Shown here: piece by piece, positions 11,832 to 52,487 of the stretch
Layout of the letters: each line of letters begins with the position of its first letter
Numbering within the stretch: the first letter of the stretch is position 1
Origin: Tortispora ganteri
Lineage: Eukaryota
Length of the DNA stretch: 64,000 nt
Direction of reading: 5' to 3'
Assembly (NCBI GenBank): GCA_003707115.1
Contig: PPNB01000007.1
Span: 186,001 to 250,000, forward strand
Program-made: the position numbers and the translations under genes
Notes under the pieces: model-generated
Told to the model about the DNA's origin: nothing
What the model saw: only the letters and a program-made list of their open reading frames with translations
Database searches by the model: none

Positions 11832-12443
11832 CTAGCAGGCGCAATTAGCCTGTTTGTTCGGTGCAGCGCCTAGATCGATATGATCCGGAGTTTCTTGAGC
11901 AGCTGCAGAAGCGGCGGCAGGCTCTGGAAGTTTGCTAGCAAGAGCGGTGAATACCTCCTGTACGTTGCTTCCTGTTTTGGCGGAAGTCTCAAGGAAGAGC
12001 AAGCCCTCATCATCCGCAAGAGCCTGACCTTCAGCGGTAGCCACACGAGGTCCATTATCGTCGCTGGCAAGATCGACTTTGTTGCCGACTAAAGCAATGA
12101 CGATATCGGGGCTAGCCTGTGCATGAAGTTCTGACACCCAGTGACGGGCCTTTACGAATGAAGCCGGTTTGGTGACATCGTAGACCACAACAGCAGCCTG
12201 AGCATTTCTGTAGTACATCGGAGCAAGCGAAGCAAACCGCTCCTGGCCGGCGGTATCCCATATCTCGAATTTGATTGTTCTATTTGGCAGCTGACATTTT
12301 TGGGTCAGAAAAGCTGCGCCGATTGTTGGCTCCTTATGCTCCTGGAACTCATTCGAGACAAATCTTAATACAAGCGAAGACTTTCCTACTGCTGCTTCGC
12401 CCAATAGAACAAGTTTTACTGATGTCTGCGGTTTTGCGTCCAT
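11832..12443 (-). CDS. VPS21: Rab5-family GTPase
   Basis: [39 protein letters not shown] prenylation end. Start placed at MDAKPQ. Confidence 0.92.
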
Positions 12444-12833
12444 TCTCTTAACAGATTTTAGGTGCAGGAGCGAAATCTGAAAGGAGGCGGGTGGGTGTGG
12501 GAGGTTGGGCCTTTGATCTGGGAGATTAAGGTCTTTGGCCGAGTGTAGGAGTAGGCGACTAAACCCCAGACCTCCCCCCCTTTCCGTCCCTACATATGAG
12601 GCCGTCATGGAAACGAAAGAGCAGAAAATAGTAACTAGCAGAGACTCAAAAGCCAGAACAACAGCATTGCTACTAGTAATTATAGTGTTCTTTCAGCTAA
12701 CAGGGCGTAGCATAAAGAGCTTAGGGTTAGCTACAAATAATATAGGGAGTGTTGGTGCAAGCTGGTGGACAAGCACACACGCTACAGGTAGACTACATAT
12801 TGCATATATCATGTTAAGTATTCAACATTATCA

Positions 12834-17000: not shown

Positions 17001-18213
17001 GAACATTGACCTTGATGAACTTCGTCGCATAAACTATTATGATAAGTCTAAGAACCAAAGTACGTCGTTCAAACAAGCAATTACTGAGGATTTTAGTGTT
17101 CCCGATATTGTTGAACAGCTACATGTGGAGTGCGATTATGAAGCCCGCAAAGCACAAGTTTCTGCATTTAACAAAGAACATAAGTGGATTAAGCGTGGTA
17201 TTACTACTACACCTACGAAATTCGGTATTTCATTCGGTGCTCTATTTCTCAATCAAGCCGGTGCATTAGTGCATATTTATCATGATGGATCCATTTTACT
17301 AACACATGGTGGTACAGAAATGGGTCAAGGATTGCACACTAAGATGGCAATGATATGTGCTCATGAGCTTCAAGTCCCTCTTGATAATGTATTTATCTCT
17401 GAGACGGCAACTAACACTGTTCCTAACACATCACCTTCTGCTGCATCAGCATCTAGTGATCTTAACGGAGGTGCAGTAAAGAACGCATGCGATCAATTGA
17501 ATGAGCGTTTAAAACCGTACAGAGAAAAGTTTGGACCTAATGCCACAATGCGAGAGATGGCCCATGCTGCCTACATGGATCGTGTGAATTTATCAGCTAA
17601 TGGATTTTATAAGACTCCTGATATTGGATTTGTATTTGGCGAGGAGAATCCCAAGCCTGCTTTCTATTACTTTACTCAAGGAGCTTGTGTTTCCGAGGTG
17701 GAAGTGAACATGCTTACGGGAGATTTTTCAGTGATTCGAACAGACATTAAAATGGACATTGGTCGGCCAATTAACCAGGCTATTGACTATGGACAAATAG
17801 AAGGTGCTTACGTTCAAGGACAGGGCCTTTTTACTACTGAACAGTCCTTATGGTTTTCACACAATGGGCAAATATTCACTAGAGGCCCTGGTGCGTATAA
17901 GATACCTGGGTTCAGAGATATTCCGCAGGAATTCAACGTCACTATGCTAAAAGACCGGCCGTTTAACCATCTCAACACTATTCACCGCAGCAAAGGTATT
18001 GGAGAGCCTCCTCTTTTCCTTGGATCTACTGTTTTATTTGCAATTCGGGAAGCATTGAAGGCCGGCAGGAAACAATTCGGACAGGAAGATGTTCTTGTAC
18101 TGAACGCACCTTGTACCGCTGAACGTATACGTCTTGCTGTTGGCGATGACATCATCAAGCGAGCCGTTGTTACCCCGAAGGAGGGCGAAAAACCTTTCCT
18201 GATTGAAGCTTAA
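14059..18213 (+). CDS. XDH: Xanthine dehydrogenase/oxidoreductase (2Fe-2S, FAD, molybdopterin)
   Basis: GTKLGCSEGGCGACT, QCGFCTPG, NLCRCTGY, GGGFGGKE, AFRGFGGPQG, SKGIGEPPLFL. First ATG at 14059. Confidence 0.96.
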   Translation: MTPSIASLVPESSTVSTVYQDIAKGELPPLPKEIDAFSYTSVLTFYLNGVKQVVRNPNPEGTLLDYLRLNAHLTGTKLGCSEGGCGACTIVVASIDPDTNSVYYAAINSCIAPLIFVEGKHLITVEGIGSVKNPHPAQERIAYFHGSQCGFCTPGIVMSLYALLRNTDGSPSKDQIVEAWDGNLCRCTGYKPIIDAANTFVSGCARGKDCCKNKSNGRRCGDESNGTSINSDREEMEVDMNELLSPNGMPLKPAYTADQELIFPPSLRKYELPPIYFGNFRKVWFRPTSKAQLLQIKSAYPSAKIVGGSSEIQIEIKMKAANYNVSVFANDIPELRRFSYVPGEGLHFGSNISLSKLEEVLKALIEGSDEIPVPKLEPYQTGFFKAMLHQLKYFAGRQIRNAATPAGNIATASPISDLNPVLVSAHAVLTVEQEGKEPVKLSMADFFISYRNTKLPTEGIITSIFVPETTKFQHVAAYKQAKRKDDDIAIVTSSFFMELDESNVITQARLVYGGMAPITIAAKEASSFLVGKNLLDIETIESTFSCLERDFNLPYGVPGGMATYRRGLALSFFYRFYNQVKSDLNLDFDADVLTEVTRDHVKGKRDLVNPFESRILGKSNPHLSALKQVTGEAVYVDDIPPQHGELFGVQVLSSKAHARIISVDFSAALEVPGVVDYIDINDLPNREANMWGTVNGYEPFFADNEVFYAGQCIGVVLAETELAANEGMRAVKVEYEDLPFITTIEEAIDANSYFDHVKPQTYKGNIEEGLKKAKYVFEGTHRMGAQEHFYLETQGALAVPEPEDGELKIYSSSQNPTETQHFVASATGVPDSRIVCRVKRLGGGFGGKESRCVQLAGLASVGAVKTKRAVRMMLSRAEDMQTSGQRHPFMFKWKCGFDENYKMTAYEVDLYCNAGWTMDLTRGVIERAVLHADNVYFCPNVTVRGWICKTNTASNTAFRGFGGPQGMFACESMFYEVADRMNIDLDELRRINYYDKSKNQSTSFKQAITEDFSVPDIVEQLHVECDYEARKAQVSAFNKEHKWIKRGITTTPTKFGISFGALFLNQAGALVHIYHDGSILLTHGGTEMGQGLHTKMAMICAHELQVPLDNVFISETATNTVPNTSPSAASASSDLNGGAVKNACDQLNERLKPYREKFGPNATMREMAHAAYMDRVNLSANGFYKTPDIGFVFGEENPKPAFYYFTQGACVSEVEVNMLTGDFSVIRTDIKMDIGRPINQAIDYGQIEGAYVQGQGLFTTEQSLWFSHNGQIFTRGPGAYKIPGFRDIPQEFNVTMLKDRPFNHLNTIHRSKGIGEPPLFLGSTVLFAIREALKAGRKQFGQEDVLVLNAPCTAERIRLAVGDDIIKRAVVTPKEGEKPFLIEA

Positions 18214-26839: not shown

Positions 26840-27223
26840 CTATTTCAGTTCTAGATTTGTGAGGTTCTCTGTCAGCGATTGTGTAGAATGTGTAGTTTCA
26901 GCTTTGGCGACCACCGTCTCATAAAGCCGCACATTGCTATCTAAGTATCCTGGAGCTATAGCACGTTTACGTAGAAGATCTTTAGCAGCAACTTCAGATT
27001 TCCACCGTGTAAATGCGTCTTTGTACGCTGCTTTAAGCCTAGTGATTTCCTTTAATTGTCCTTCTGCAGCCAATGTCGCTTCATGAGCTTCCTGGCCCAG
27101 AGGTGCAGGAACAGAAGACAACGGTAAATAATTGAAGGGCAGAGTTGCAGCCGCAGGACCAGTTGCAGCTGGGGTAAGGATCAATGGAACCTGGGATAAC
27201 GTGATATCGGTGAGTTTCGGCAT
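26840..27223 (-). CDS. Small hypothetical protein
   Basis: 127-aa ATG-initiated ORF that fills the gap between genes; Pro-rich N-terminus, helical segment, RAIAPGYLDS motif. Confidence 0.65.
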   Translation of the reverse strand: MPKLTDITLSQVPLILTPAATGPAAATLPFNYLPLSSVPAPLGQEAHEATLAAEGQLKEITRLKAAYKDAFTRWKSEVAAKDLLRKRAIAPGYLDSNVRLYETVVAKAETTHSTQSLTENLTNLELK

Positions 27224-35650: not shown

Positions 35651-36151
35651 ATGTTGAGTCTTCGCTCGTCGATACTCCGCAATGCTGTTGCTGCGCGACC
35701 AATGATCCGTAGCTCCATGCTTGGTGCTTCCTTCCCCATACAATCTCGCACTTTGAAATTCATGGCAGGCCATCAGAAACAAGTAGTACAAGGAAGTGTA
35801 AATGATGCGGTGAAAATTCCTCCTCCGGATAAGTCGCATGGTTCTTACCACTGGTCCTTTGAACGTGTGCTTGCCGCTTCCCTCGTTCCTTTAGCTGCTG
35901 TTCCATTTGCATCCGGCGCTGTTTCTCCATTACTCGACGCTACTCTTTGTTCTTTATTATTGGTTCACACTCACATGGGATTCGCCGCTTGTATCACTGA
36001 TTATTTTCCCACCCGTGAGTTCCCGAAAACAAATCGCGCCATGTTTTTTGCTCTTTATGGTGGAACTGCTCTAGCCTTGTATGGAATTTATCTTGTGGAG
36101 ACTAAAGATGTTGGTATTGCGGAAACTATCAAGAAAGTTTGGACCGCCTAA
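35651..36151 (+). CDS. SDH4: Succinate dehydrogenase cytochrome b small subunit (CybS; Sdh4/Tim18 family)
   Basis: Presequence, HGSYHWSFER, H.H.GF..CITDY, DVGI....KKVW. First ATG at 35651. Confidence 0.9.
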   Translation: MLSLRSSILRNAVAARPMIRSSMLGASFPIQSRTLKFMAGHQKQVVQGSVNDAVKIPPPDKSHGSYHWSFERVLAASLVPLAAVPFASGAVSPLLDATLCSLLLVHTHMGFAACITDYFPTREFPKTNRAMFFALYGGTALALYGIYLVETKDVGIAETIKKVWTA

Positions 36152-37458
36152 TGATGTCTTTGATTATCTCTTTCTGAAGTTTTATATACGAATGAACATA
36201 AATTACGATGTGTGTTGTGTAGTATCCAAGTGATTCACTGAGGAGTGATCGAAAAACTCGGCCTCGCCAAGTTGAGTTGGTAAAATCTAATAGCCAAAAA
36301 ACGCCTTCGGTTTAGGAATCTAGATTCCCTTTGCAGTCGGTACTGGATAGTTCCCTTTCATTTAGTTCTTCCTTCCATGGTACTATTATAGTCTTTCTTC
36401 TTGTGTAGTAAAATGGAGGAGCATCGATTTCCATGATCGGTATCGGGTTATGCTAACGAACAAGCTAACATACTGCGCATTGAACTCAAGGCAAATCATA
36501 TGCCAATCCTCGCACAGCTGTCCCATGCCTATTCAATTACTTGAATGGCTCAGTTTCTAGTGGCTGTCGCCTGCAATATACTGCAGTCTCTCGAGAGAAC
36601 ATTTATGAGGATTTCACCGAATTTCCCACCCTATCATATAAACATCTCTCTTACTGAGATGATCCGTTCGTACTCGGGTAAGCGCAGTCGGAAACCAACA
36701 CCTCCTTCCACTAGGCTATTGATGCCAAAAGTCGAAACAAAACGGTGCTATATAAGCCTGATGGAATTCTTGTCCGTGGTTCGATTCAATATGACGCTTT
36801 TTTAAGGTGACTACTTTTCACGAATAATTCTTCTGCATTACATGGTTCTAAGCTTCTGAAAAGTCATTCATGTTTTTATCTATTTTTATTTCCCTGATTT
36901 CTTGTTAGCGGACTGGCAATTCGTTTCTGATCAACTTGACTCCCGGCACCATTATGTTTCCGCGCTGAAGGCTGTGGTAAACAACGGCCAAGAAGTCGCC
37001 GCTAAATCTAATTTGAGGAACTATGAGCCAAAATATGCACTGTTCCGCATTGCTCCGAGCACACTACTGTGTCAATTTGTTGACATATAAATCCAGTAGC
37101 CGACCAAAAATTCAAGTCAGTCATATAAAAATTTCTGTTCTGTTGCTGATAGTGTTTGGGTCCGTCCCGAGACTGCAACAGGATGTAGCAAGGCTGAGGA
37201 TACATTGCCTAAATCGACCAATAATAACACCAGACACCCATTATCAGATTTTTTAAGGTTTCATGATGGAATCTTTTCGATCTTGTAGCGAACCGGAACC
37301 TCAAACATAGCTTTAGAAAACACTCCTTGTGAATAGGGAAACATTACGAAGACTGTCAGATTTTCGAGATCTTTTTTTAAAAAAATTCACTATATTTGAT
37401 GCTAATCTTACTGAACATCAATAAACGACGTTTCGGATAATATTCTCCTATAATAGCC

Positions 37459-40446
37459 ATGCCTGAGTCGATCAGATCCACTCTAGTCTCTTCCGATGTA
37501 TCCTCTAATACTACCGATCCTGAATATGATGTTGATACCGCGGAAATATACATTTCCATATCTGGTATGACTTGTTCTGCGTGCACATCATCGGTTACAG
37601 CTGCTCTGAAAGCTATCTCCGGGGTGTATAATGTTCAGGTGGCCCTTGTTACAGAGCAAGCTAGAGTAGTTTACTCCCCGCTACAAGTTTCGCCAGAAAA
37701 GTTGATTCAAGCAGTTGAAGACTGTGGATTTGATGCGTCTATAGATTCTTTGCAGTCTGACCGTTCAGAAGCGGAATCTCTTAGAAACGAAAATGCAGAA
37801 ATCGCGGTATACGGAATGACCTGCTCTGCTTGCACCAACTCTGTCACCGCAGCTTTATTAAGTTTGGATGGCGTAAACTCAGCGCAAGTGTCTCTAGCCA
37901 CCGAAACTGCCAATGTGTCTTATGATACATCGAAAGTTGGCATACGTGATGTTATTGAAGCTATACAAAACTGTGGCTTTGACGCCGTGCCTGCACATTC
38001 TCTTACAAGACGAAATCAAGCACTTGCCTTGCTTCGAGTCAAGGACGTTATTTTTTGGCGCAAGCAAGTAATTATTTGCTTGCTATTTGCTATTCCTGTA
38101 TTTGCAATTTGCGTTGTTATTGGTAAATACTTTCAATCATTGCAGGTATACATTCAATTTCAGATTATGCGAGGTTTGTTTTTTGATCAATTGCTAGCTC
38201 TTGTTTTGACCATTCCCTTACAATTTGGCATTGGACTAAGATTTTTAAAATCAGCTTATACCTCCATCAAGCATGGCTATGCCTCTATGGATGTTCTTGT
38301 TACCCTCTCTACTTCTATGTCGTTTTGGTTTTCGGTATTCAGCATGCTGTATTCTATTATCTCCAAGTCCTCGAAACGGCCTACTGTTATGTTTGAAATG
38401 CCCACAATGATCTTATTATTTGTCGTTATCGGCAAGTATTTGGAAAATAGAGCAAAGGGACAAATGTCGCAGGCACTTTCAGAACTCATGCAACTTACCC
38501 CGCCTGTAGCGACGATTTACTCCTCTAAATCTGATATAGCTGCTGCACAAGCTCGTGCTGCCGAACTTATAACTGAAGGGAAAAAATTTGCTCCAGTTTC
38601 CATTATAACTGAAAGAGAAGTGAACTCTGATATAGTACAAAGAGGCGATATAGTAATATTACGGCCAGGCATGCGTGCACCTGCTGACGGAATTGTTATA
38701 GCAGGATCCTCTTCAACGGACGAATCACATCTAACTGGAGAGAGTATTCCTGTGTCCAAAGAATTGGGTAGCCCTATCATATCTGGTTCCATTAATCTGG
38801 ATGGCCGTATTGACTTTGTTGTTACAAGAGGCGGCACAAAGACAAGACTATCTCAAATTGTCGACCTAATTCGTACTGCGCAATCAAAATCTACACCTAT
38901 TCAAAGATTCGGTGATAAGGTGTCAGCAGTTTTTGTTTATACAATATTGTCTCTCGCCCTTTTCACGTTTCTTTTTTGGCTTACAGTGTGTTATTTAGAC
39001 ATTGGACTCCCCAAAGTATTCGCTGATACGAGAGCCACTTCTGGGCGGGAAGGTGAATTGTTTTTATGCTTCCAGTTGGCGGTTACTGTGATTACCGTTG
39101 CTTGCCCTTGTGCTATAGGTTTAGCTACGCCGACTGCTGTGATGGTGGGCACAGGTGTAGGTGCGCAACATGGGATACTTTTTAAGGGCGGAGACTCCCT
39201 CGAAATATCATCGCAGGCAACTCATGTGATATTTGATAAAACAGGCACTCTGACCTATGGACAATTAACTGTATCTAGATGTGAGCTTGATAAGAACTGG
39301 TCAAACTTGTCTAATTTGTGGTATGCCCTTGTTATTGCCACGGAGGAGGGTTCAAAGCATCCTATGGCAATTTCTATTGTCAAAGAGCTTGAAAAGAAAC
39401 TCCACAAATACTCTCTATCTGGTCATGTTTCTATTGAAAGCTTCACATCTTACACTGGGAACGGAGTGAGTGCCGTTGCTAAATATGACGAACAAATTTT
39501 TGATATGAAGATTGGAAGCTCTACTTTTCTGTTATCTCTTGGGATAAAAATAGACTCCGATCTACTTTCTCGTGAATCTTCAACTTCAGATTCAATAGTT
39601 TTTGTCAGTATAAACGGCAACTTGTCTGGAACAATATACTTGATTGATCGGGTTAGACATGAGGCTGCGGATGCAGTTCGTCTGCTAATGAATGCGGGCA
39701 TAACTGTTGCAATTGTAAGCGGTGATTCAGAGAAATCTGTAGAGACTGTTGCTAAAACTGTTGGAATTCCTGAGAACTGCACATTCTCCAGAATCTCTCC
39801 AGAAGGTAAACTTTCTATTATTCGTGATATACAATCTGGCAGTATACTTCGAACATCCCATTATGAACAGAAATATCTGAGAAAACTCATCTGGAAAACA
39901 TTTTTTAAGTCCAGAAGACCAGTGGTGATATTTGTGGGGGATGGGATAAATGACTCACCGGCATTAGCTGCTGCTGACCTCGGAATGGCAATAGCATCAG
40001 GGACTGAAATTGCAATTGAGGCAGCAGATTGTGTGCTCACCAAAGGAAGTGGAACTGACCAGCAATCCGACACTCAAAATGATGTTTTATTAGACGTCTA
40101 CTCGGCGATAGATTTAAGCGCCGCCATTCTCAGGAGGATTAAATACAATTATATTTGGGCCACCATATATAATTTAATTATGATCCCATTTGCAATGGGC
40201 GCATTTTTACCGCTTGGAATTGTGCTCACTCCTATTTTTGGCTCCGCTGCGATGGCTTTGTCTTCTGTCTCAGTTATAATGGGTTCATTGCTACTCAAGA
40301 ACTGGCATCCTTCTAATAGGAAAATCGAAAGACATATTTTCCCAAGGTTCCATTTATCCTGGCCATTGGCCTTCAAGTTTAGGAAACCTTCCAATGACAA
40401 TATTCCACTCATTGAATATACTCCAGTATCGCGCGATGATGAATGA
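37459..40446 (+). CDS. CCC2: P1B-type copper-transporting ATPase
   Basis: Two HMA domains (GMTCSAC), TGES, CPC, DKTGT, GDGINDSP, YN and MALSS transmembrane motifs. Confidence 0.95.
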   Translation: MPESIRSTLVSSDVSSNTTDPEYDVDTAEIYISISGMTCSACTSSVTAALKAISGVYNVQVALVTEQARVVYSPLQVSPEKLIQAVEDCGFDASIDSLQSDRSEAESLRNENAEIAVYGMTCSACTNSVTAALLSLDGVNSAQVSLATETANVSYDTSKVGIRDVIEAIQNCGFDAVPAHSLTRRNQALALLRVKDVIFWRKQVIICLLFAIPVFAICVVIGKYFQSLQVYIQFQIMRGLFFDQLLALVLTIPLQFGIGLRFLKSAYTSIKHGYASMDVLVTLSTSMSFWFSVFSMLYSIISKSSKRPTVMFEMPTMILLFVVIGKYLENRAKGQMSQALSELMQLTPPVATIYSSKSDIAAAQARAAELITEGKKFAPVSIITEREVNSDIVQRGDIVILRPGMRAPADGIVIAGSSSTDESHLTGESIPVSKELGSPIISGSINLDGRIDFVVTRGGTKTRLSQIVDLIRTAQSKSTPIQRFGDKVSAVFVYTILSLALFTFLFWLTVCYLDIGLPKVFADTRATSGREGELFLCFQLAVTVITVACPCAIGLATPTAVMVGTGVGAQHGILFKGGDSLEISSQATHVIFDKTGTLTYGQLTVSRCELDKNWSNLSNLWYALVIATEEGSKHPMAISIVKELEKKLHKYSLSGHVSIESFTSYTGNGVSAVAKYDEQIFDMKIGSSTFLLSLGIKIDSDLLSRESSTSDSIVFVSINGNLSGTIYLIDRVRHEAADAVRLLMNAGITVAIVSGDSEKSVETVAKTVGIPENCTFSRISPEGKLSIIRDIQSGSILRTSHYEQKYLRKLIWKTFFKSRRPVVIFVGDGINDSPALAAADLGMAIASGTEIAIEAADCVLTKGSGTDQQSDTQNDVLLDVYSAIDLSAAILRRIKYNYIWATIYNLIMIPFAMGAFLPLGIVLTPIFGSAAMALSSVSVIMGSLLLKNWHPSNRKIERHIFPRFHLSWPLAFKFRKPSNDNIPLIEYTPVSRDDE

Positions 40447-42923
40447 CACGACGCACCTTATCGCCTTTTTACAACTATTTCTCTTCTCTTGAACATGACT
40501 CTTCTTACATGATTTAAACTCCTATATTACGTGTAATCTCTAGAAATTAAATTTGCAGCTCCTTGGGTACCATACTTTTGTATCTTTATAACGTTCTGAA
40601 AAATTTATAATGGGACTATAGGCATTTCATTTGGATAATTAGTACATAATTGTGAGATCTCTTTGTCGTGCCCATTAGATATCAAGAAGCTGGTGTCCCC
40701 GCATATAAATAATAATGCCGACATTTTAGACGCGATTCGAAACCAATCAGGGCACTATATTAGTGATATCAAGAGTATTTGTTTTGCTGAAGCTTGCGAA
40801 AACAATGATCCTGCTCATCTACCCAAACTGAGTAATAGTATAATTTTTCGATTAATTACCAATTGTCTTGCTAGAATACGTGCCCAGGCTCTGAAATGAA
40901 TAGTTTCAACATAGGATTAACTTAACACATTAGCCAGCAAGTCGTCTTTCTCCACCTTGTAGTATCCTCGCATACGCATCATTATAGCAATAACGATGTT
41001 GAAAGATTCAAGGGAGTATATACTGATATACTAGTCCGATAGAGAGATTGATCAAGCCAATTCGTGTGATAGAGTGGCTGATTCTAGGTGCAACATACCG
41101 TCACCGTTAGAGGGTCCGGTATCATTTAAATTTTAGAGCAAGTAAACATCTTGTCAACTCGGATTGGTTTTATCCGGAAAAGTAACCTAAGTGGTGATTA
41201 AGGAACAACATATCAGTCATAGATGAATATGTTGGGAAAGCATCCGACCAGCCGATAACGACTCAGCAAAATTACCACTTAAAGGTTCTTCTCAAAGCCT
41301 CGTTTGCTAGTACTAATCTACTCAGCCACCGGCAGACGACACTTCCAGTCGACCACACTCTGATATACCTATTGTATCATCCTTTGTCTCACCCAAATCA
41401 GTGAAAAGGTTCTGGGATACGTAAGTGACTGTCACAATGAACAGGCCCGGGCATAAAGAACTTGGAACGTTTCTATAATGCAAGGTAGCGGGCAGGGTAG
41501 CGCATTTTCAACCCAATTCAAAGCATTTATAGGCAAAAAGGTCTCTCTGCACTCCCATTGAAACAGATTACAAAGAGACATGTCACTAAAATCACGCTTC
41601 ATTTTGTTAGCAAATCATCGCATTGAACCCAGGAAGAAACGCAGATTTTCTTTCTTCTTCGTTTATTGATTATGTTCCTTGAGTACTATTATGATCTATC
41701 GATTTATGGTCAATGTACTAGTAAACAAGCAGTATTTTCAAAAGCACTAATAAGACATGATTCTACGCGATCCAATTCTATATTATATGTCAAAGTTGCA
41801 GCAGAGTAAGTGTATGTCGCGTCTAACTTTCGTTTAAGATTCAAACTATTAGGATGCTTAAAACTAATAGTTCTTTCGCCACGCACCTTAAGTGGCGTAC
41901 ACACAAATACTCAATAACATTTAATAAATCTGAAGGTTGTGTTTGCGCAATATTCTATTTAGTTCACCGCAATCTTTGCCACCTAGTTACCATTACGAAA
42001 AATACTAAGTTTGCCGATATAGGCAGTGTTTGGGACTTTCGCCTTGCTAGTTCAGAATATTTGCAAATCGTTGATTATAAGTACCTAAGTAGCGCACAAA
42101 AATATATATTTAATCGTGGATATACGGCCTCGCGGTCGCATTCGCGCAAGATTCTTACATCTTTACAGCAAACTTTGCCATTTCGTTATCTTTACGAAAG
42201 TTATTGAATTTACTAGCTTGTCTAACACTGCGACGTCGTAGTAGACTTTCTTAGTAAGATGCTAATTTCGATTCAATTTATGTGAATTTTCGACCAAAAG
42301 CATTGCCCATTATTCCAATATACTGTGCAGGCATGGCTTCCATCTCATCGTGGTAGAAAATCTTGCCCCTCAGCATTATTCAGTTCACATTAAGATGGGT
42401 TATTCAGTAATTTCTCTGAATACGAAGGCATCCTAGTATAGTAGCTAAATTCATTTGGATTTTATAAACTAATCTAAAGTATAAATAAGTCTAATGAAAC
42501 ATTGAAACATGCATAACACTAATTTCAGCATCAAATTCATATAAAAAAGTCATTCTAGTATGTTATATTGTAAACCTGAGGATTGACTACATTTCAATAA
42601 ACATTTCTACTAGCATTAAAGTTACTCTTATCCTAAAAATAACTCTAAGGTAATGAATGCGTAGTTTATACATAACTCATGGAAATATCTACACATAGCA
42701 ACTTCAACCGGTTTTCTTTTGAAGCTAGAGGTTAACCACACTTGATTCATAAAAGAAATAGCAAACTAAAATTACGCAAGCGTTTTGAACATGCTACAAG
42801 GGCCCTTCCACCTTATATGTTTGATGCTTTCCAGCTCAGCAGTTCAACCAAACTGCGGAATGCATATATAGTACACACATCAAATTGCTATTTTTCTGCG
42901 ACTATTCCAGCTGAAATGAATTA

Positions 42924-42988
42924 CCACATTAGTCTAATTTGAATATATTTTCCACATTGGTCTAATTTGAACATATCTTCCACATCGG
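42924..42988 (+). repeat. 28-bp tandem repeat, about 2.3 copies
   Basis: CCACATTAGTCTAATTTGAATATATTTT / CCACATTGGTCTAATTTGAACATATCTT / CCACATCGG; the two full units are 25/28 identical. Confidence 0.85.
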
Positions 42989-45797
42989 AACTATTGTCCG
43001 TAAAACGTATAACAACAAATTTCCAAAAGCACGATTATTTTAACAATTCTTCGCAGCTAATAGTTTTCTATCGCTGAAATCAATAAACAGGAAAAGTTCT
43101 TTGTTAGAGAAATAAATATCAATGTCTTCAAAAGCGAACATGCTTTTGTCTTTTTCATTTTGTAACTTCTAATCGATACTTAGCATTAATTTATATCACT
43201 ACGCGCCACACAATTACCCAAATTCTAATCCAACGAAAATATCAATACATATAATATATGACAAATACTACATACACACTTTTAGTAGATATTCTTCCCT
43301 TGCTACTCTCTATAAGTTATAAGCTACTGAACAAGTAAATACGGTTATTTCTGGAATTTTACGCAATAATTGGCATTATTGATATTCCTGCTGTTTATAA
43401 CATTCAACCATAACATAATATTTTCTCCACTTATCATCTTGTCAACCGAGCCTACCATTACCTTTATGACTATAGATCACAATATTTAAGTATCGATCCA
43501 ATCGAGGTTTTATTAACCATACCTGTCTCGTCCTAAAATACATAGCACCCGAGCAAAAAAATATATCAATGGCGCTAATGATTATATAGAGGGATAATTA
43601 AATTCAAAATATATATGCGTCTTCATTAATAAAGAAACTTAAGACCAGTTGCCCACATTGGGTCTGAAAGAAACTTTTATTTCAAAAAGAGCAGATTTTT
43701 TGTTCAAAACGTGGAGGCTAATAATAGCTAGTAAACGTTAAATGCAGTAACAATGTGGCACTGTTGTTGTTGGAATTAACCTAGTGTGGCGCTTTACTTT
43801 CAAGCGGATATAGATGCTTAATCCTGTTTGATTCCCAGATTGGAAGTAGAGATTGAGATACCATTGTTTAGTTGGCTTTCATCACAAAATGATAAAATAG
43901 GATTTGCTCAGATGGTCACTTATGTTATTTTACTCGGTGTTACGCGATACCATTCTCTGTCAAGCGTATTACCTGGCATTTCGTTGCCCGTATAGCGCTT
44001 CATGCGTGGAATAGATGACACTAGCCGCTATAAACTCCTGCTATGAATACCACATAGTTGTCTTTTGGAGTATCTTACGCGCCACCGTGGCGTTCACAAG
44101 TCAATACAGAAACTCTATTCCAAATGGTTACGTTATTTAGTTCTTAATGATGCTCCACTGTGACTCAGTATGGATAGTCATATATAGTCCTATCACTCCT
44201 CCGGCAATTAAGAATTACAAAAAATTGAGAGCTTCATCAGATATCTTCTGTGCGCTCAGCGACTTAGTCTACTTTATTGAGCTGGATAGTAGCAATAGAA
44301 GCCCATTCTACAGCTATACACCTTCTTGCTGTTAGTTTCTGAGAAGCAAAATAAACCAATTGTCCTTTCAGACTTTTCCCTAGCGCAAGAGTGCGGAGAA
44401 CCAGATGGAGCTGTTAGAGAGGCGTCTTGATACTTTGTTTCTGGATCTGACCCGGAACAACCAAATGAACGCTTGGAAAAAAATCAAACTAAGCACTATA
44501 TAGAGAATCCGTCGAACTAAAATGCAATAAAGTCTCTGAAAGGTTACGGTGGCTGTGTATAGACCTTAGGCATTGTTAGAAGATATACATATCAAGCAGA
44601 AATCGAAAACGAACCAAGAGCAAGTTAAGTTTGAAACGGATAGTGCTGGTTATAGATCATAATGCTCAGAAGCAGATACATCTCCGTTGGTACTGATGAA
44701 TCATAGTCGTAATCAGTGGTTCGAGAAGTAATGAAAGAAAGTGCTCTTTCATTTCGTTGCAAAAACAAATAGGACTCCTACGCTGCTTCTACCCCCTCAG
44801 GTCAAACGATACTGCCTATTAAGAATTGTTGTAGTTCGCTGCTTGGAATAAAACACCGAGGAGTATATGGCTTTCGTTGCCACTTAAGGCCTCCCAAATA
44901 GAAAACTTTCTTTCGTCTAATTTGTTTCTTTATGTGCAGTAGCCTTACAGGGATAAGCTTACTGAGCAACTAAAATGTTGATACACCTCGCCATATTGAC
45001 AACATGCCAGAGAAAACGGCATCCAATATGATTCAAAGCTGTGTACCGAACTTTTTTCTTAGTAATAACACCATCAGTCGGCTTACTATATGTTTATTTT
45101 AAAGTATGGCTCATTGCCGTCTTAAAAGTATCATGCTGACGAAAACAGATTGTCATTATAAATAATACGCCACATACGCCATATTCTGCTTTGTTGTTAT
45201 GCTTTATTGAAATTGGTATAGGATCTCCTGAAGTGCTCAGTCTTTTTTTAAACACATTATTACTTAAGCTGTCCTTAATCATACAGGCTATTCATATAAG
45301 CTAGATGTGATCTCATAGCGAATGCAATGTTATAGTATATATGTCTCACTTTTCGTCCAAGCTCTAACCCCTCAGTTGGTGCGGTTTCATATACTTATTT
45401 CTTCTTGGCAAAAGCCGCAAACACAAACAAACAATGTTGGAAGACTATTTTCGTGCACTTTTATAATAGTCTCGAAATCGTTCTGCGTGTTTCTTTAGCA
45501 GTTTTGTTCGTAGTTCAACAATATATCTGATCGTTTACATGACTCCGCTTAGTATAGTAGTTGATCTGAAATAATAATCACTTTCTACTACGTCTTAACG
45601 TTGCTACAATGAAAACCCCCATGTGACTAGCACTGTAGTATTATAACTTAAGACTGTCATCGAGAATAAAATAGAATCCTCAGCCTGGAAATAATTAGAG
45701 GTGAGTATTCAGGAGCCGGATGATAACAGAATGTCCACATATGCACTAGAAGGGCCTTAATCTGATTCACGATTTAAAGGGTCACCTCTTCGACTTG

Positions 45798-45812
45798 TTT
45801 TTTTTTTTTTTT
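45798..45812 (+). repeat. Poly(dT) tract, T15
   Basis: Directly visible homopolymer inside the gene-free interval. Confidence 0.9.
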
Positions 45813-47657
45813 GTTTTTGAGGAGATTATCCAATAATTCCATTGGTATTGGGTCCTGAAATAATAATAGCCTAGTACATTCCAAATCAGAAACTTTGCAG
45901 GTTCGTATGTATATGGTTGAAGCTGCAATCACGCTAAATATGAATACGTTATCGGTTTCTTCTACAATATATTAATATGCATATTGCAAAACTTTAATGC
46001 AGCTCATTACCGACAACAATAAGAGGAAACCTATAAAGAAATGACAAAGGAATAATTCCGCCGCTGTGCAGTGTATATCCTATGTGATAAAGAAGAACTT
46101 CTTTCACTATACGGTTAATTTTACCGCTAGATCATAGCTCTTCGCTTGAGGTAATTTTTTCGTCGTCCACTGAATTAATAGATAGATGCAGACGGCTCAT
46201 ACTAACTAAATCTTCAATTCACTCATAAATCACTATGCACTCGTCTGTTTTCATATATCTTAAAAGCTTGAACGGGCTTGCCAGACGACAACTCTCAACA
46301 TTGGCTAATGGCTAAACGCAATAATTAAATTACTGCCTTAGCTTCAAATACTAAAATCATTTTCGGTAAACTTGAGTATATAAAACAAAAGGGCAAGAGA
46401 CATCTGCCTGTAAAAATTTCAACCACTCAGTATGTAGGGACAGTTGATTGTTACATGTAATTAGGGATAACTAACCCATGCGATAAGGTTTCAGTTGGGC
46501 AAAGTTCTCATTTCACTATGATGTTCAAAACATCGCCACACTTTGCCTTGAATTAAAAGCCAAATACGAGCATGCTATATAAGTCTTCTCTCAATGATCT
46601 AGAAAGTTGTACGATAAATTAATTATTCCTGATGTTTTCTCACATTGTTTAAGATTGAACATAAAAAACGCTATGGTAAAGTTTGCTAATGCTTTAAGCT
46701 AGTAATATATGGTATTTATGTGTGTGTATTTTTATCAAATGTGGCGTGTGGCGTCCACATAGTTTCCGGATACTATAATTAACGCCTATTCTTCTTCTTT
46801 ACATTTGTGGCGTCTTGCTTATTAAGTTTGTTCAATTAGCAAATGTAAGTCGAGTTTCGTAGCTTTATAAAAATATATGAGCATATACTCAATGTTTCGT
46901 TCAGCGTGCTATTATTAAACATACCATACAATCGAATGATCAAGCTCGCTTTTTCTGATGAACAATGTTTATAGTGCTGTTCTCCGCTTAAGTTTTTGTG
47001 GTATTTAAAGGTTCGAGATTGCATGAATGTTATTCATAGGCTGTTAATAATAATTTTTGGAGAAAATATGGCGTACATTTCTCCCTCTACCTTTTAAACA
47101 TGTTATATTTTTGAAATAGGAGTTGAGACTGCGCCACTTTTTCTATCATTATTACCCGATACAATCCCTTTGAATGGCATCAACGAAAGCATCGCTAAAA
47201 TTGCTGCAAATAGATGAGCTACAACTAATTCTCATTGTTACTGACTTTAGTGCAGTAATCTCTCATGCAGTTATGTAAACAGTCTATATATTCGCCTATC
47301 TTTAGCTACTGCAAAGATAATGCTGATGTGTATATGTAGACTACCTTTTGCGTGAATTGCTTGGGTGTAGCACTTGAATATCATCAGTCGTCACAATAGG
47401 ACTAGTAATCACTACTCAGACCTACCTTCCATGTAGCAAAGTTGGTTATAGATTTTCTCAACAAGCCACGATTGAGTATTAGGCCATTTTCCAATAGAAT
47501 CTAAGATACAAAGGCTAGATAATGAATGAATATCAAGGCACACCGAATATATTGGATATATACACATATACACTGTAGGCTTTAGATATTTGACAAGCTT
47601 AATAAAATTACTATACGCTTATAGCGTAATGTTCTTAATCATAAAACATAAACGACA

Positions 47658-48881
47658 TTAATCATATCTCCTTTGCAACAAAGGTAAATCAGCTGTCGGC
47701 ACTTGATGCAACTGTGATTTAAAGTAACCAAGATAAATAGTGATGACTGCTAAAGTAGTGGTGATAAGTATGACACAAACAATGAATATGCATGAGAGTA
47801 TTTTCCAAGCGGAGCTATCAAGTTGAGTGCTCAAATGAGTAGAAGCTAAAGCCATGGTTCCTAAGGGGAAAGTAAGAGCCCACCAGCTCAAAGAGAATGT
47901 TTTTGGATGCCCAGATGCTACAGCCATGGTAGACCAAAAGAGAAAGGAAAGGCCCAGTGCAAAGAATGTCATTCCCAAAGCATAGCCGAGATACTCAATA
48001 ACAATCTTCGATGCAATAGAGGCAGAATAATTTATGTTTAATCCCGGATAAACAGTATCTTGTAAGTATTGTGCTAGATTCAAAGCGTTAATCTGAATGG
48101 AAAAAGAACCTTGGCCGCATGGTCCACAAGCAATGAACATGGATAAACGGCTAGCCTTAGGTAACTTACCATGAAGATACCATCTAATTAAGAATGCGCC
48201 TATGATCATTAAAGCAGTTATCTGACCAGCGCCCCATGCTATAAAGCTCATTATGAGAACAGTGCCTCTCAAATGTTGAGGTATATGGGGAACGATTGCA
48301 CCACCCAGAGATGACACGACCACTAGGGCTACAGTAGGTAGCAAAAGGGCGGGTGTCAGCGTGTTCATCTTTCTTTCTGACCCAAAATGTATGTATATAT
48401 ACATTACCAGTAAAGCGGATACGTATGACAGAATGGTATCAATCCAATATATCGCGTAGGCAGCAACCCAAGCCCGTTCACCCCAGTTGATAACTATGAA
48501 GGTTGTGATAGTTGCCAATCCCATAGGTAAACAGCCCCAAAAAACAGCTCGTTCATTGTGGCATAATTTCAGTAGCCTTCTAGGGTATAGATACATCAAT
48601 AAAATTAAGGAGGCGGTTGATATAATAAATTCGAATGTGGCAACTCCCCAAAAGGCATATGATAAGCCATTTAACCACCTTGCTTGATATGGAAATACCC
48701 TCAATAAATTACCACATATGCCTACACCCATAACAGTTGAGAACCACGCAGGATCAAATCCTGCTATTCTCTGTGTGAAGTAGTTGAATTTCGGAACATT
48801 GATTGATGAGTCACAACTTGCTTTCTCTTTTTCTGCTGTGTTTTCTTCCACATCCACTCGAGGTCCGTTGACTGCGGTCAT
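47658..48881 (-). CDS. TDT/SLAC1-family transporter (Ssu1 sulfite efflux / Mae1-like)
   Basis: F.PAWFS.VMG.G, FWGCLPMGLATI, LLP.V, GPCGQG, WWALTFPLG, about 10 TM segments. First ATG at 48881. Confidence 0.88.
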   Translation of the reverse strand: MTAVNGPRVDVEENTAEKEKASCDSSINVPKFNYFTQRIAGFDPAWFSTVMGVGICGNLLRVFPYQARWLNGLSYAFWGVATFEFIISTASLILLMYLYPRRLLKLCHNERAVFWGCLPMGLATITTFIVINWGERAWVAAYAIYWIDTILSYVSALLVMYIYIHFGSERKMNTLTPALLLPTVALVVVSSLGGAIVPHIPQHLRGTVLIMSFIAWGAGQITALMIIGAFLIRWYLHGKLPKASRLSMFIACGPCGQGSFSIQINALNLAQYLQDTVYPGLNINYSASIASKIVIEYLGYALGMTFFALGLSFLFWSTMAVASGHPKTFSLSWWALTFPLGTMALASTHLSTQLDSSAWKILSCIFIVCVILITTTLAVITIYLGYFKSQLHQVPTADLPLLQRRYD

Positions 48882-49317
48882 TCTTTTATTTATATAAACT
48901 CTATTTCGTTTGCCGTCAGGACGAGCGTGAATTAACAAATAGCTATACCTTTTGCTCCGCACCAAATCAAGTATTGCGTGATCCTACCGACCCGGGTTAG
49001 CGTTAAGCGTGTTTATTTTTTTAGCTTCGTTGTGTTTTAGCGAAATATGTTGCTCCCCAACTTTCAGTTATATACTGTCACCTGAAACAAACTGCGGCTT
49101 ATAACTTTTTTTTGCTATGTTTCTTGATTGGGCATTTGGGTAGTATCATTTTAGCGCCGAACACGAAACAGTGTTTTCCTCAACACGGAAACGGATCGAG
49201 GTACGGGTCACCACTAGCACCCAGCGCACAAGCAGTTCGAACCCTTCAGTGAAGAAATTGACATTGCAATCCTTCCCCCTCACACTATTCAGGCAGGGGC
49301 GCTCTACATATTGCAAT

Positions 49318-50460
49318 ATGGGAGACGTGATCACGGAGAAGAAGATTGCGCAGCTAAAGAAGAATTATCCTGATGCAGACGACGATACATTGTTTGAAAT
49401 TCTATTGGCATGTAATGGGGATACTGACGCTTTCCTAGGCAAGCGTAGCGAGCGCAAAGAATGCGATGATGTGCAGCCGAATCACAACAAAGGCCAGTCA
49501 CTGTTTAAGAAATTGAAAGCTTCGGTTCCAAACAATAAGTCAGAGCAATCAATTAAGTTATCTAGAATGAAGCATAAGACTATATGTGTCCTAGATTGCC
49601 CTGATTTAAGTCGAACTATCCCTTACTGCTCTTTGCATGAAAACATATTAGAGTCTTCTATCGCTGATAAGTTACTAGCGTACCTTCTTGAACAGAGTCC
49701 TAACTGGTCTAAGCACGCCTATAAAATTGCGGGCAGGGAGGTGTATTCTCATCACACTGGTTGCCTGTATTTGGACGGAACGGAGGGCGATGATCATGGT
49801 GCTTTGCACGAAATGTCAGAGGATGGAGGCCGAATAAAGTGTGTAGAGCGCAACATGCCTACGATTCTTCAAACTGCATTAATCTGCATTAATGAAAAGG
49901 TTAGAAAACTGCTAGATTGTCCGTCTGCAAAATCATTTAACGCTAATGCAGCTTTAGTGAACTACTATAAAGACGAAACTCATAGTGTTGGTTTTCATGC
50001 AGATCAACTTACACATATAGGCCCTCGAGCGATTATTGCATCATTATCCTTGGGCGCATCTCGAGAGTTTCACATAAAACCTCTAGAGAAGCCAGACCAT
50101 TCTATGCATCATGCACTAAGCAAAACTTGCACCTACATAACTATGCTGCCTCACAACTCTTTATTTATAATGCATCCTAATTTCCAGGAAACTTACAAGC
50201 ATTCAGTTCCAAAATGTGTCACTGTTCATAAAATTCATGAACAAGCTGGGAAACAGAGAATTAATATCACCTTCAGAATGTACAGAGAAGATTTCCGTCC
50301 TAGTAAGCTCCCTAAATGCACAACGTGTGGCAAACATCTTATTTTACGAACTGCATTCAAGAAAAGCGGAGACTACTTTTGGTCATGTGGAAGGCATGAC
50401 AATGGTACATTTTTGTGGGACACTGATATACATACCAAAAACAATTATACCGGGTGTTAA
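49318..50460 (+). CDS. AlkB-like 2OG-Fe(II) dioxygenase with N-terminal CUE-like and C-terminal GRF-type Zn-finger-like regions
   Basis: NYY, HAD (HxD), IASLSLGA.REF, LPHNSL..M, HSVP, RINITFR; C-terminal CxxC...FW.C. First ATG at 49318. Confidence 0.85.
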   Translation: MGDVITEKKIAQLKKNYPDADDDTLFEILLACNGDTDAFLGKRSERKECDDVQPNHNKGQSLFKKLKASVPNNKSEQSIKLSRMKHKTICVLDCPDLSRTIPYCSLHENILESSIADKLLAYLLEQSPNWSKHAYKIAGREVYSHHTGCLYLDGTEGDDHGALHEMSEDGGRIKCVERNMPTILQTALICINEKVRKLLDCPSAKSFNANAALVNYYKDETHSVGFHADQLTHIGPRAIIASLSLGASREFHIKPLEKPDHSMHHALSKTCTYITMLPHNSLFIMHPNFQETYKHSVPKCVTVHKIHEQAGKQRINITFRMYREDFRPSKLPKCTTCGKHLILRTAFKKSGDYFWSCGRHDNGTFLWDTDIHTKNNYTGC

Positions 50461-50488
50461 TTACTGATCATCAATTAGGAGATATAAT

Positions 50489-51448
50489 TTAGCATTTTGA
50501 TAGCAAGCTTTCTGCTACAGAAGATTCTTCAGAAGAAGCATCTGATAGCAAAGAGCGCAGTTTCTCGGCTGCAGTAGCAATGCGCGCATTGGCATCAGCG
50601 ACCATTCGTTGCGCCTCGTTCACGAGGTTTTGCGCTGATTTGGCGGTATGTTTCTCCGTGTCTGACGTTAAACTATTAAGGGCCTCAAGAGCAGCAGAAT
50701 GTTCTTTGACATAATGGTCTCGGTCGCTTATCAGACGGCGTAGGCTGTTAATATTTATCTGCACAGGAGTAGGACGTCCCTTTGCTTTTAAACCGCTAGC
50801 GCTTGGAGCAGCAAAAGATCCACCTCCACTTCCTCCAGAGGGTGCAGGGTCAATTGAAGGAAGGTCCACTTTCCTGACACCATTTGTACCAACCACATAA
50901 ACATAAAGGCCCTTCAAATTTATGGGAAGCCTTTTGTCGAGTTCAGCAGCGCAGCGGGCTATTATATCGAGACCCTCCTCCAACGTCAAATCATCACGAG
51001 CATGTCTGTCCATTGTCGAAAGACAGTAATAAGAAGCGTATCCATGTGCCGCATATGGCACAGAGACGCTAGATGCAAGATAATCTATCCAGTATAAGCT
51101 CGGTTTCTTATCAACATAATCATAGCCTCCAAGGAGCATGTTCACCTGGTACGGCTTCCTAGAACGCAATGCATCGGCTAGAGTCTTCCGGGTAAATGAC
51201 GCTAAATTTTTAACACGCGGTTGTCCAATATCAGTGTTTCTAAGTTCAAACAATGCAGTATTAGCTTGTATGTATTCAGCAAACTGTACAGTATCCCCAG
51301 CCTCGCCCGAAAAGGCCAAGAGGCAATTTTCTGACAACTGTCTGGTTTTATCATCAGAATCCTTCAGTACGGTTACTCCTCTCACAGCAGCACGCGATGC
51401 AGCAATGATTACTTCGTCTTTGGTGCAGAGCCCTAGTAATGTCTCCAT
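50489..51448 (-). CDS. PRE1: 20S proteasome beta4 subunit fused to a C-terminal TBCA/Rbl2-like domain
   Basis: aa 1-196 are beta4 (GEAGDTVQFAEYIQAN, LRSRKPYQVN, AHGY...YCLS..DRH). aa 197-225 are a linker. aa 226-319 form a helical domain resembling tubulin cofactor A. Confidence 0.93.
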   Translation of the reverse strand: METLLGLCTKDEVIIAASRAAVRGVTVLKDSDDKTRQLSENCLLAFSGEAGDTVQFAEYIQANTALFELRNTDIGQPRVKNLASFTRKTLADALRSRKPYQVNMLLGGYDYVDKKPSLYWIDYLASSVSVPYAAHGYASYYCLSTMDRHARDDLTLEEGLDIIARCAAELDKRLPINLKGLYVYVVGTNGVRKVDLPSIDPAPSGGSGGGSFAAPSASGLKAKGRPTPVQININSLRRLISDRDHYVKEHSAALEALNSLTSDTEKHTAKSAQNLVNEAQRMVADANARIATAAEKLRSLLSDASSEESSVAESLLSKC

Positions 51449-51537
51449 GGTGTGGGCAATATATCGTCAAGCAACCTCTTATGTTGGCGAAAGGCAACTT
51501 AGCTGGCGAAGGTAGCGTGCAGTGTACTAAGCGATGT

Positions 51538-51545
51538 CCGGGTAA
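51538..51545. promoter_or_regulatory. Reb1-type site (CCGGGTAA) in the PRE1/COQ5 divergent promoter
   Basis: Exact consensus near the middle of the 196-bp divergent gap. Confidence 0.6.
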
Positions 51546-51629
51546 CCTACAGACTACTAATGGGCGCCCATTTGCAGAACAGGTTTCTTTTACGCTGTTG
51601 TTGCAAAGAGTCTTACGGCTCACTTATAA

Positions 51630-52487
<858 letters not shown>

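What the first reader, a model, noticed from the sequence alone, without database searches (positions are those of the whole stretch)
40447..47657. 7.2-kb gene desert between convergent genes: candidate regional centromere
Seen: CCC2 (+) ends at 40446 and the TDT transporter (-) ends at 47658, so no promoter is needed here, yet the gap is 7211 bp. The other convergent gaps in the window are 12, 28, 47, 59, 62, 83, 92, 109, 210 and 487 bp. The core is AT-rich (sampled lines about 25-32% GC) and has no recognisable ORF, tRNA or LTR, and I saw no long flanking inverted repeats. Established: non-point centromeres in several budding yeasts are unique gene-free, GC-poor islands of a few kb. Inference: this is a centromere; a lncRNA locus or a fully decayed element are alternatives.
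Basis: partly seen in the sequence, partly recalled or inferred. Interest (0 to 1): 0.75.

Follow-up and report, generated by a model that had tools for sequence, protein, structure and literature searches.

The report
Candidate regional centromere in Tortispora-like yeast
A 7.2-kb stretch of unique DNA with no genes, repeats or recognisable RNA sits between two inward-pointing genes in a very compact yeast genome; it is most likely that chromosome's centromere, in a yeast order where no centromere has been described, but nothing available here could prove it.

Summary
The gap is real. A CCC2-like copper ATPase (+) ends at 40446 and a TDT/SLAC1 transporter (-) ends at 47658, leaving 7211 bp. 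That is 5.5 times the next largest intergenic region in the window (1307 bp) and 15 times the largest other convergent gap (487 bp). Two DNA runs cover it at flat single-copy depth, so it is not an assembly artefact or a repeat.

It has no coding signal, Pfam domain, tRNA, Rfam match, LTR, inverted repeat or internal repeat beyond chance. The "AT-rich" claim is overstated: the gap is 35.9% GC against 38.0% in other intergenic DNA. There is no deep GC or GC3 trough and no GC-skew switch.

The flanking proteins are 84-89% identical to Tortispora caseinolytica (Trigonopsidaceae). My literature searches found no centromere described for this family or order.

The anatomy fits the featureless, unique small regional centromeres of Candida albicans (4-18 kb gene-free). 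It fits none of the other known types. The decisive tests could not be run: one such gap per chromosome, Cse4 occupancy, Hi-C and RNA-seq.

Centromere about 0.45; decayed, functionless DNA about 0.25; non-coding RNA locus about 0.15.

The parts
37459..40446 (+). Left flanking gene: CCC2-like P-type Cu(+) ATPase, 3' end facing the gap
   Evidence: Pfam E1-E2_ATPase, HMA and Hydrolase domains. 87% identity to a T. caseinolytica protein.
40447..47657 (.). 7211-bp gene-free, repeat-free, single-copy region: the candidate regional centromere
   Evidence: size outlier. (no coding signal). (no tRNA or Rfam family). (no repeats). (flat single-copy depth).
42201..43750 (.). Most AT-rich segment (32.0% GC), with the most negative GC skew of any 1.55-kb window in the 64 kb (-0.17 to -0.20). 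If this is a centromere, a possible core; that is inference.
40544..43060 (.). 2517-bp run with no difference from the two DNA runs, while the rest of the gap carries 18 of its 20 SNPs. Possible constrained element.
   Evidence: places. (P = 0.004 for SNPs, 0.017 for events, under uniform placement).
41484..41502 (-). 19-nt piece with a 7-nt terminal repeat at a 12-nt period. It is G-rich on the + strand and shares a TAGCG-plus-G-run core with the putative Trigonopsis vinaria telomere repeat. Weak lead for a telomerase RNA template.
   Evidence: The 7-mer is not enriched in the window: 5 matches against 3.5 expected.
42924..42985 (.). Only tandem repeat of note: a 28-nt unit, 2.2 copies
45795..45819 (+). 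Longest homopolymer-like tract, a T-run of about 21 nt. Much shorter than the tracts of about 50 nt or more reported in Blastobotrys putative centromeres.
47658..48881 (-). Right flanking gene: TDT/SLAC1-family transporter, 3' end facing the gap
   Evidence: Pfam SLAC1. 89% identity over 100% of the query to a T. caseinolytica protein.

Best explanation
The gap is the small regional centromere of this chromosome. It would be a unique, gene-free stretch on which Cse4/CENP-A nucleosomes are maintained epigenetically and the kinetochore assembles, with no defining DNA motif, repeat or retroelement, as in Candida albicans. Shown: its size, uniqueness, absence of genes and repeats, and the convergent flanks. 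Inferred: everything about Cse4 binding and function.
For: (1) Size outlier in a compact, almost intron-free gene array: 7211 bp against a median of 224 bp and a maximum of 1307 bp for the 34 other intergenic regions.
(2) Both flanking genes point inward, so no promoter or upstream regulatory region of a flanking gene explains the length.
(3) No coding content. 0 of 6 read-through frames hit Pfam at E <= 1. Among 32 ORF pieces there were 5 weak hits, all below the curated cut-offs. The codon log-odds never exceeds 2.1 in the gap, against 6.5-21.7 across CCC2.
(4) No tRNA and no Rfam family, even at E <= 1.
(5) Unique and repeat-free. The best internal match scores 35.6 bits, against a mean of 31.4 and a maximum of 41.0 in 20 simulated gaps. 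Depth is single-copy and the contigs are unbroken by repeats.
(6) It differs between strains like unconstrained DNA: 2.8 SNPs per kb, against 0.6 in coding DNA (p = 0.0017) and 4.1 in other intergenic DNA (p = 0.36).
(7) The dimensions match characterised or proposed yeast regional centromeres: C. albicans 4-18 kb gene-free and featureless, and Blastobotrys about 6 kb gene-free without inverted repeats or transposons.
(8) A review passage states that classical H3K9 heterochromatin was lost after the Lipomyces split. Small centromeres without pericentric repeats are therefore plausible in this lineage.
Against: There is no positive centromere-specific signal.
- The GC content is only 2 points below other intergenic DNA.
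- The GC3 of neighbouring genes dips only mildly, 0.31-0.42 within 10 kb against 0.33-0.51 further out.
- There is no GC-skew sign switch.
- The Yarrowia CEN consensus has 0 of its 6 window matches in the gap. The Blastobotrys motif has 1 of 10, which is the chance share.
- There are no long poly(A) tracts.
- The 2.5-kb SNP-free run suggests a constrained element that a sequence-independent centromere does not predict.
- The centromere type of this order is unknown, so it could be a different kind located elsewhere on the chromosome.
- 'One per chromosome' could not be tested.
Confidence: 0.45

Rival explanations
1. Functionless remnant: a gene cluster, mobile element or foreign insertion that has decayed beyond recognition and has not yet been deleted.
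For: The composition (35.9% GC) is close to the GC3 of neighbouring genes (0.35-0.39) and to other intergenic DNA (38.0%), as expected for DNA drifting at mutational equilibrium. ORF lengths are random-like. The SNP density is intergenic-like. The segment 42201-43750 has a strong strand asymmetry (GC skew -0.17) that could be a relic of a former transcription unit.
Against: No trace of any protein family in the read-through frames. No LTR, terminal inverted repeat or target-site-like repeat. No second copy in the genome. In a genome whose other 34 intergenic regions in this window are all 1.3 kb or shorter, 7 kb of useless DNA would be expected to be deleted (inference). The SNP-free 2.5 kb argues against wholly neutral DNA.
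Confidence: 0.25
2. One or more unannotated non-coding RNA genes, for example a telomerase RNA on the - strand around 41.5 kb, together with their regulatory DNA.
For: The 2517-bp run without SNPs at 40544-43060. Inside it lies a 19-nt piece at 41484-41502 with telomerase-template layout. Its core resembles the putative telomere repeat of Trigonopsis vinaria, TTAGCGAGGTG, from one supplement row. Yeast telomerase RNAs are long and escape Rfam outside Saccharomyces (recalled, not tested).
Against: No Rfam match at E <= 1. No excess of stable structure: 1 of 190 window-strand tests had z < -3 and the mean z was -0.09. That scan has low power, because the RNase P RNA control reached only z = -2.1. 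The 7-mer GGTAGCG is not enriched (5 found, 3.5 expected) and the T. vinaria repeat has 12 near-matches against 13 expected. A 7-nt repeat at short spacing is expected by chance in 7 kb (inference). An RNA of 1-2 kb would explain at most a third of the gap.
Confidence: 0.15
3. A hidden protein-coding gene: an orphan, or one built of many small exons. The lineage is reported to be intron-rich.
For: A review passage calls T. caseinolytica intron-rich for a budding yeast. The 126-codon frame at 41827-42207 is the longest in the gap.
Against: The 117-aa ORF found only bacterial Listeria-Bacteroides repeat proteins, through one short motif, and no fungal relative among 1.84 billion representatives. 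Its length is within chance. No 300-bp window has a coding-like codon score. The genes in this window read as single long ORFs: 25 of 26 and 7 of 10 scanned ORFs carry Pfam families.
Confidence: 0.07
4. Assembly artefact or contaminant insertion.
For: None found.
Against: Two runs cover the whole of 36000-52000 at uniform depth of about 84, with overlapping contigs. The two runs may be one data set filed twice.
Confidence: 0.01

Closest known systems
Small regional centromeres of Candida albicans and C. dubliniensis (Serinales)
   Same: A gene-free region of 4-18 kb with unique sequence, no consensus motif and no required repeats, 'essentially featureless' (Introduction of PMC12711049; passage of PMC5010909). 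The gap is 7.2 kb, unique and featureless.
   Different: Cse4 occupancy is shown there and untested here. The organism belongs to a very distant order. C. albicans centromeres are reported to carry GC skews (passage of PMC8262905); no skew switch is seen here.
GC-poor, repeat-free centromeres of Clavispora lusitaniae and Candida auris
   Same: ORF-free, unique, and without pericentric repeats.
   Different: Those are 2.1-2.6 kb ORF-free regions lying in deep GC and GC3 troughs. Here the region is three times longer and has no deep trough.
Putative centromeres of Blastobotrys adeninivorans and functional CENs of Yarrowia lipolytica (Dipodascales)
   Same: Blastobotrys: about 6 kb, gene-free, without inverted repeats or transposons, one per chromosome (supplement file 10 of PMC4022394). 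These are the phylogenetically nearest lineages with any centromere data that my searches found.
   Different: Blastobotrys centromeres are troughs of 31-33% GC in a 48% genome, with poly(A) tracts of about 50 nt or more and a degenerate dyad motif. Yarrowia CENs lie in 2-4 kb intergenic regions. Here there is no such trough, tract or motif.
Ty5-cluster centromeres (Ogataea, Scheffersomyces) and inverted-repeat centromeres (Komagataella phaffii, C. tropicalis)
   Same: Gene-free regions of several kb.
   Different: No retroelement protein trace, LTR or kb-scale inverted repeat is present.

Membership tests
Small regional (epigenetic) centromere, C. albicans type | Cse4/CENP-A enrichment over 3-5 kb | not testable with these tools
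   No ChIP data. Only DNA runs are listed.
Small regional (epigenetic) centromere, C. albicans type | Gene-free region of about 4-18 kb | tested here: met
   7211 bp without coding signal.
Small regional (epigenetic) centromere, C. albicans type | Unique sequence with no shared motif or repeat | tested here: met
   Single-copy depth and contigs unbroken by repeats. No internal repeats beyond chance. Comparison with the other chromosomes was not possible.
Small regional (epigenetic) centromere, C. albicans type | Exactly one such locus per chromosome | not testable with these tools
   No genome is held for this window.
GC-poor trough centromere (Clavispora, C. auris, Blastobotrys, Yarrowia) | Deep GC and GC3 trough relative to the chromosome | tested here: not met
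   Gap 35.9% GC, against 38.0% in other intergenic DNA and 42.0% for the window. Only a mild GC3 dip. Tested against 64 kb only, not the whole chromosome.
GC-poor trough centromere (Clavispora, C. auris, Blastobotrys, Yarrowia) | GC-skew switch at the centromere | tested here: not met
   Skew is negative inside the gap and mildly positive on both sides, so there is no sign flip.
Yarrowia/Blastobotrys CEN | Dyad consensus (TTTCCNAATTNGGAAA, or NTTCCNATTNNGGNA) and long poly(A) tracts | tested here: not met
   0 of 6 and 1 of 10 window matches fall in the gap, which is the chance level. The longest T-run is about 21 nt.
Inverted-repeat centromere (K. phaffii, C. tropicalis, C. parapsilosis) | Pair of kb-scale inverted repeats around a mid region | tested here: not met
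   The longest inverted arms are 29 nt at 76% complementarity. The gapped self-alignment found nothing above chance.
Ty5-cluster centromere | Ty5-like retroelement genes or LTR clusters | tested here: not met
   No RT, integrase or gag family in six read-through frames at E <= 1. No direct repeats. Very old solo LTRs cannot be excluded.
Point centromere (CDEI-CDEII-CDEIII) | Conserved tripartite element of about 125 bp | not tested
   Not searched. It is described only for Saccharomycetales and relatives.
Telomerase RNA | Template complementary to the species' telomere repeat | not testable with these tools
   No Tortispora telomere repeat is in the papers or supplements searched, and no genome ends are available.
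Telomerase RNA | Match to a curated telomerase RNA model | tested here: not met
   No Rfam match at E <= 1 in 40300-47800. Rfam's yeast models may not reach this lineage.

The most novel reading that the evidence does not exclude
This is the first centromere located in the order Trigonopsidales, an early branch of the budding yeasts. It would be a 7-kb unique, repeat-free, retroelement-free and not notably AT-rich epigenetic centromere. That would extend the featureless C. albicans type far outside Serinales. It would also bear on whether the ancestral budding-yeast centromere was a Ty5 cluster, as PMC13017519 argues for two classes, or a unique regional one.
Probability: 0.4. Interest if true: 0.65.

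Novelty: new member of a known kind. Interest (0 to 1): 0.45.

Why it matters
The Introduction of PMC12711049 says that centromere structure in most budding-yeast orders 'remains underinvestigated', and that the ancestral centromere type of the subphylum is still hard to infer. My three searches found no description for this family or order: Tortispora, Trigonopsidaceae or Trigonopsidales, each paired with 'centromere'.

A concrete single-locus candidate in a Tortispora-like genome makes the question testable with one Cse4 ChIP-qPCR or a Hi-C map. If confirmed, it adds an early-branching data point of the featureless, repeat-free kind. If refuted, the locus is still an unexplained 7-kb gene-free island in a very compact genome.

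Tried and rejected
- Whole-genome test for one such gap per chromosome: no genome is held.
- RNA evidence: no RNA holder is listed.
Only this could be said: the three orthologues P0024, P0001 and P0144 each sit on a contig of 2,610,682 bp.
- Metagenome contigs encoding a relative of the TDT protein: 165 pattern matches, none confirmed.
- Earlier notes of this scan: nothing found.
- Decayed gene or transposon: rejected as far as Pfam reaches.
- The 117-aa ORF as a gene: rejected. Its 21 hits are to long bacterial repeat proteins through one short motif.
- Structured RNA: no signal, but the scan has low power.
- Diverged LTRs or terminal inverted repeats: none.
- Yarrowia and Blastobotrys CEN motifs: chance level.
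- T. vinaria telomere repeat and the 7-mer GGTAGCG: chance level.
- An apparent split gene at 10902-12608, used to learn intron signals: it turned out to be separate genes, so no splice-signal scan of the gap was made.
- Centromere-linked gene sets (CEN-ALGs) of PMC13017519: seen only in passages. The gene lists were not read and no test was made.
- The T. caseinolytica genome paper could not be read under a DOI and a PMC id that I recalled. It may bear on centromeres or introns in the genus.
- The first six-frame Pfam scan failed on stop codons. It was repeated with stops read as X.
Full report
**Observation.** The ORF map under the standard code shows a 995-aa ORF at 37459-40446 (+) and a 407-aa ORF at 47658-48881 (-), with nothing longer than 117 aa (ATG to stop) between them. 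Pfam identifies them as a heavy-metal P-type ATPase (E1-E2_ATPase, HMA, Hydrolase) and a SLAC1/TDT-family transporter. The gap is 7211 bp. The largest other intergenic region of any orientation is 1307 bp, and it holds a nuclear RNase P RNA. On a lognormal fit the gap lies at z = 4.5 among the convergent gaps and z = 2.9 among all 34 others.

Contigs of two DNA runs cover 36000-52000 at flat depth of about 84. They break only at 39092-39121 and 43819-43848, where low-depth side branches carry sequencing-adapter letters. The stretch is therefore real, contiguous and single-copy. The two runs have equal sizes and near-equal depths and may be one data set filed twice.

**What was overstated.** The gap is 35.9% GC, against 38.0% for the other 13.1 kb of intergenic DNA and 44.3% for coding DNA. 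31% of its 120 sixty-base lines are at or below 32% GC, against 25% of 204 lines elsewhere. Only 42201-43750 is distinctly AT-rich (32.0% GC), and it also has the most negative GC skew of any 1.55-kb window in the 64 kb. The GC3 of genes within about 10 kb is 0.31-0.42, against 0.33-0.51 further out, which is a mild dip and not a trough. GC skew is negative inside the gap and weakly positive on both sides, so there is no switch.

**What is not there.**
- tRNA: none in the window.
- Rfam: no family in the gap at gathering score or at E <= 1.
- Pfam on 32 stop-to-stop pieces of 45 aa or more: 5 weak hits (E 0.008-0.09), all below the curated cut-offs.
- Pfam on the six complete frames read through with X at stops: 0 families at E <= 1.
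- ORF lengths: random-like. The maximum of 126 codons is reached in 12.8% and 17.6% of 500 order-1 and order-2 simulations. 16 frames of 60 codons or more are observed, against 13.3 and 15.5 expected.
- Codon log-odds trained on the window's genes: never above 2.1 in the gap, against 6.5-21.7 across CCC2.
- The 117-aa ORF at 41854-42204: searched against 1.84 billion representatives, it found 21 proteins. The top three are bacterial Listeria-Bacteroides repeat proteins, and the alignment to the top hit shows one short motif matched many times over. There is no fungal relative.
- Repeats: the longest inverted arms are 29 nt at 76%. The only tandem repeat of note is a 28-nt unit in 2.2 copies. 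The best gapped self-match scores 35.6 bits, against a mean of 31.4 and a maximum of 41.0 in 20 simulated gaps.
- Stable RNA structure: 1 of 190 window-strand tests had z < -3. The RNase P RNA control reached only z = -2.1, so this scan has little power.

**Organism.** The three flanking proteins searched are 89%, 87% and 84% identical to Tortispora caseinolytica proteins. The next hits fall to 33-43%. The window is therefore from a Tortispora-like yeast (Trigonopsidaceae). Passages of a review give T. caseinolytica 9.2 Mb in 6 scaffolds. They also place the loss of H3K9 heterochromatin after the Lipomyces split. Genes in the window read as single long ORFs: 25 of 26 and 7 of 10 scanned ORFs carry Pfam families.

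**Variation.** Against the two runs, the 16-kb stretch differs at 32 places. That is 4 in 6.8 kb of coding DNA, 8 in 2.0 kb of other intergenic DNA and 20 in the gap. The gap behaves like non-coding DNA: p = 0.0017 against coding and p = 0.36 against intergenic. The differences are uneven. None falls in 40544-43060 (2517 bp; P = 0.004, or 0.017 when clustered SNPs are merged), and 11 fall in 45052-45897. This is unexplained. It is the main observation pointing to a constrained element in the left third of the gap.

**Interpretation.** Both flanking genes end at the gap, so no upstream regulatory region of a flanking gene accounts for it. Genes, pseudogenes of known families, transposons, known RNAs, repeats and assembly error have been set aside as far as the tools reach. 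The remaining readings are:
- a sequence-independent centromere;
- decayed DNA without function;
- an unknown non-coding RNA locus;
- a hidden orphan gene.

The anatomy matches the C. albicans kind of centromere: gene-free for 4-18 kb, with no conservation and 'essentially featureless' (Introduction of PMC12711049; passage of PMC5010909). In size and in the absence of repeats it also matches the proposed Blastobotrys centromeres, which are about 6 kb and gene-free, with no inverted repeats or transposons (supplement file 10 of PMC4022394). It does not meet the compositional or motif features of the trough types:
- deep GC and GC3 troughs;
- 31-33% GC in a 48% genome, poly(A) tracts of about 50 nt or more, and a dyad motif.

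The tests for these were. It also lacks the features of the inverted-repeat and Ty5-cluster types. I put the centromere reading at about 0.45. The base-rate reasoning is an inference. In a genome this compact, few unique gene-free islands of this size should exist, and about one per chromosome should be the centromere if this lineage has regional centromeres.

**Rival lead.** Inside the SNP-free run, 41484-41502 reads as a 7-nt word repeated at a 12-nt period, the layout of a telomerase template. Its core resembles the putative telomere repeat of Trigonopsis vinaria, taken from one row of a supplement to PMC7857110. The word is not enriched in the window: 5 found against 3.5 expected. The T. 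vinaria repeat has 12 near-matches against 13 expected. No Tortispora telomere repeat was found in the papers and supplements searched. This stays a weak, testable lead, and it would explain at most a third of the gap.

**Literature status.** Searches for Tortispora, Trigonopsidaceae and Trigonopsidales, each together with 'centromere', returned 3, 2 and 0 papers. For the Tortispora and Trigonopsidaceae hits I read passages of three of the four distinct papers, and none describes a centromere in the group. The fourth, a preprint on methionine sulfoxide reductases, I saw only in the listing. The T. caseinolytica genome paper could not be read.

**Verdict.** The gap is a genuine, strongly outlying, unique gene desert. 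The centromere reading is the best single explanation but is unproven. The GC-poor argument for it is weak. The rivals are a decayed remnant and an RNA locus.

Noticed in passing
window 36430-36692 (-): Nuclear RNase P RNA (RF00009, 55.2 bits, E 3.6e-13, full-length model match). It lies in the 1307-bp intergenic region between the SDH4-like gene and CCC2, 3.8 kb from the gap.
   Followed up: partly
window 50489-51448 (-): One 319-aa frame carries a proteasome subunit domain (residues 3-186) and a tubulin-binding cofactor A domain (residues 225-309). It is either a gene fusion or two genes joined by a read-through or intron artefact.
   Followed up: no
window 14059-18213 (+): A full-length xanthine dehydrogenase/aldehyde oxidase with all molybdopterin, FAD and 2Fe-2S domains. 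By recollection, this is uncommon in budding yeasts.
   Followed up: no
window 40544-43060 versus 45052-45897: Differences from the DNA runs are uneven inside the gap: none in 2517 bp on the left and 11 in 846 bp further right. Unexplained.
   Followed up: partly
window 46740-46754 and about 47052-47060 (+): A 7-nt unit TGTGGCG in 2.1 copies, with a third copy about 60 nt downstream, and an Sm-site-like AATTTTTGG about 300 nt further on (read). The window just upstream has the only structure z-score below -3, on the - strand. Probably chance.
   Followed up: no
window 11435-11806 (-), 6817-7329 (-), 26840-27223 (-), 10095-10889 (+): Four ORFs of 123-264 aa without any Pfam family. They are either lineage-specific genes or chance frames.
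   Followed up: no
runs X1 and X2 over window 36000-52000: The two runs, dated 2018 and 2023, give contigs with identical break points and nearly identical depths, so they may be one data set filed twice. Both differ from the window at about 0.2% of positions at full depth, so they may come from another isolate than the window's assembly.
   Followed up: no
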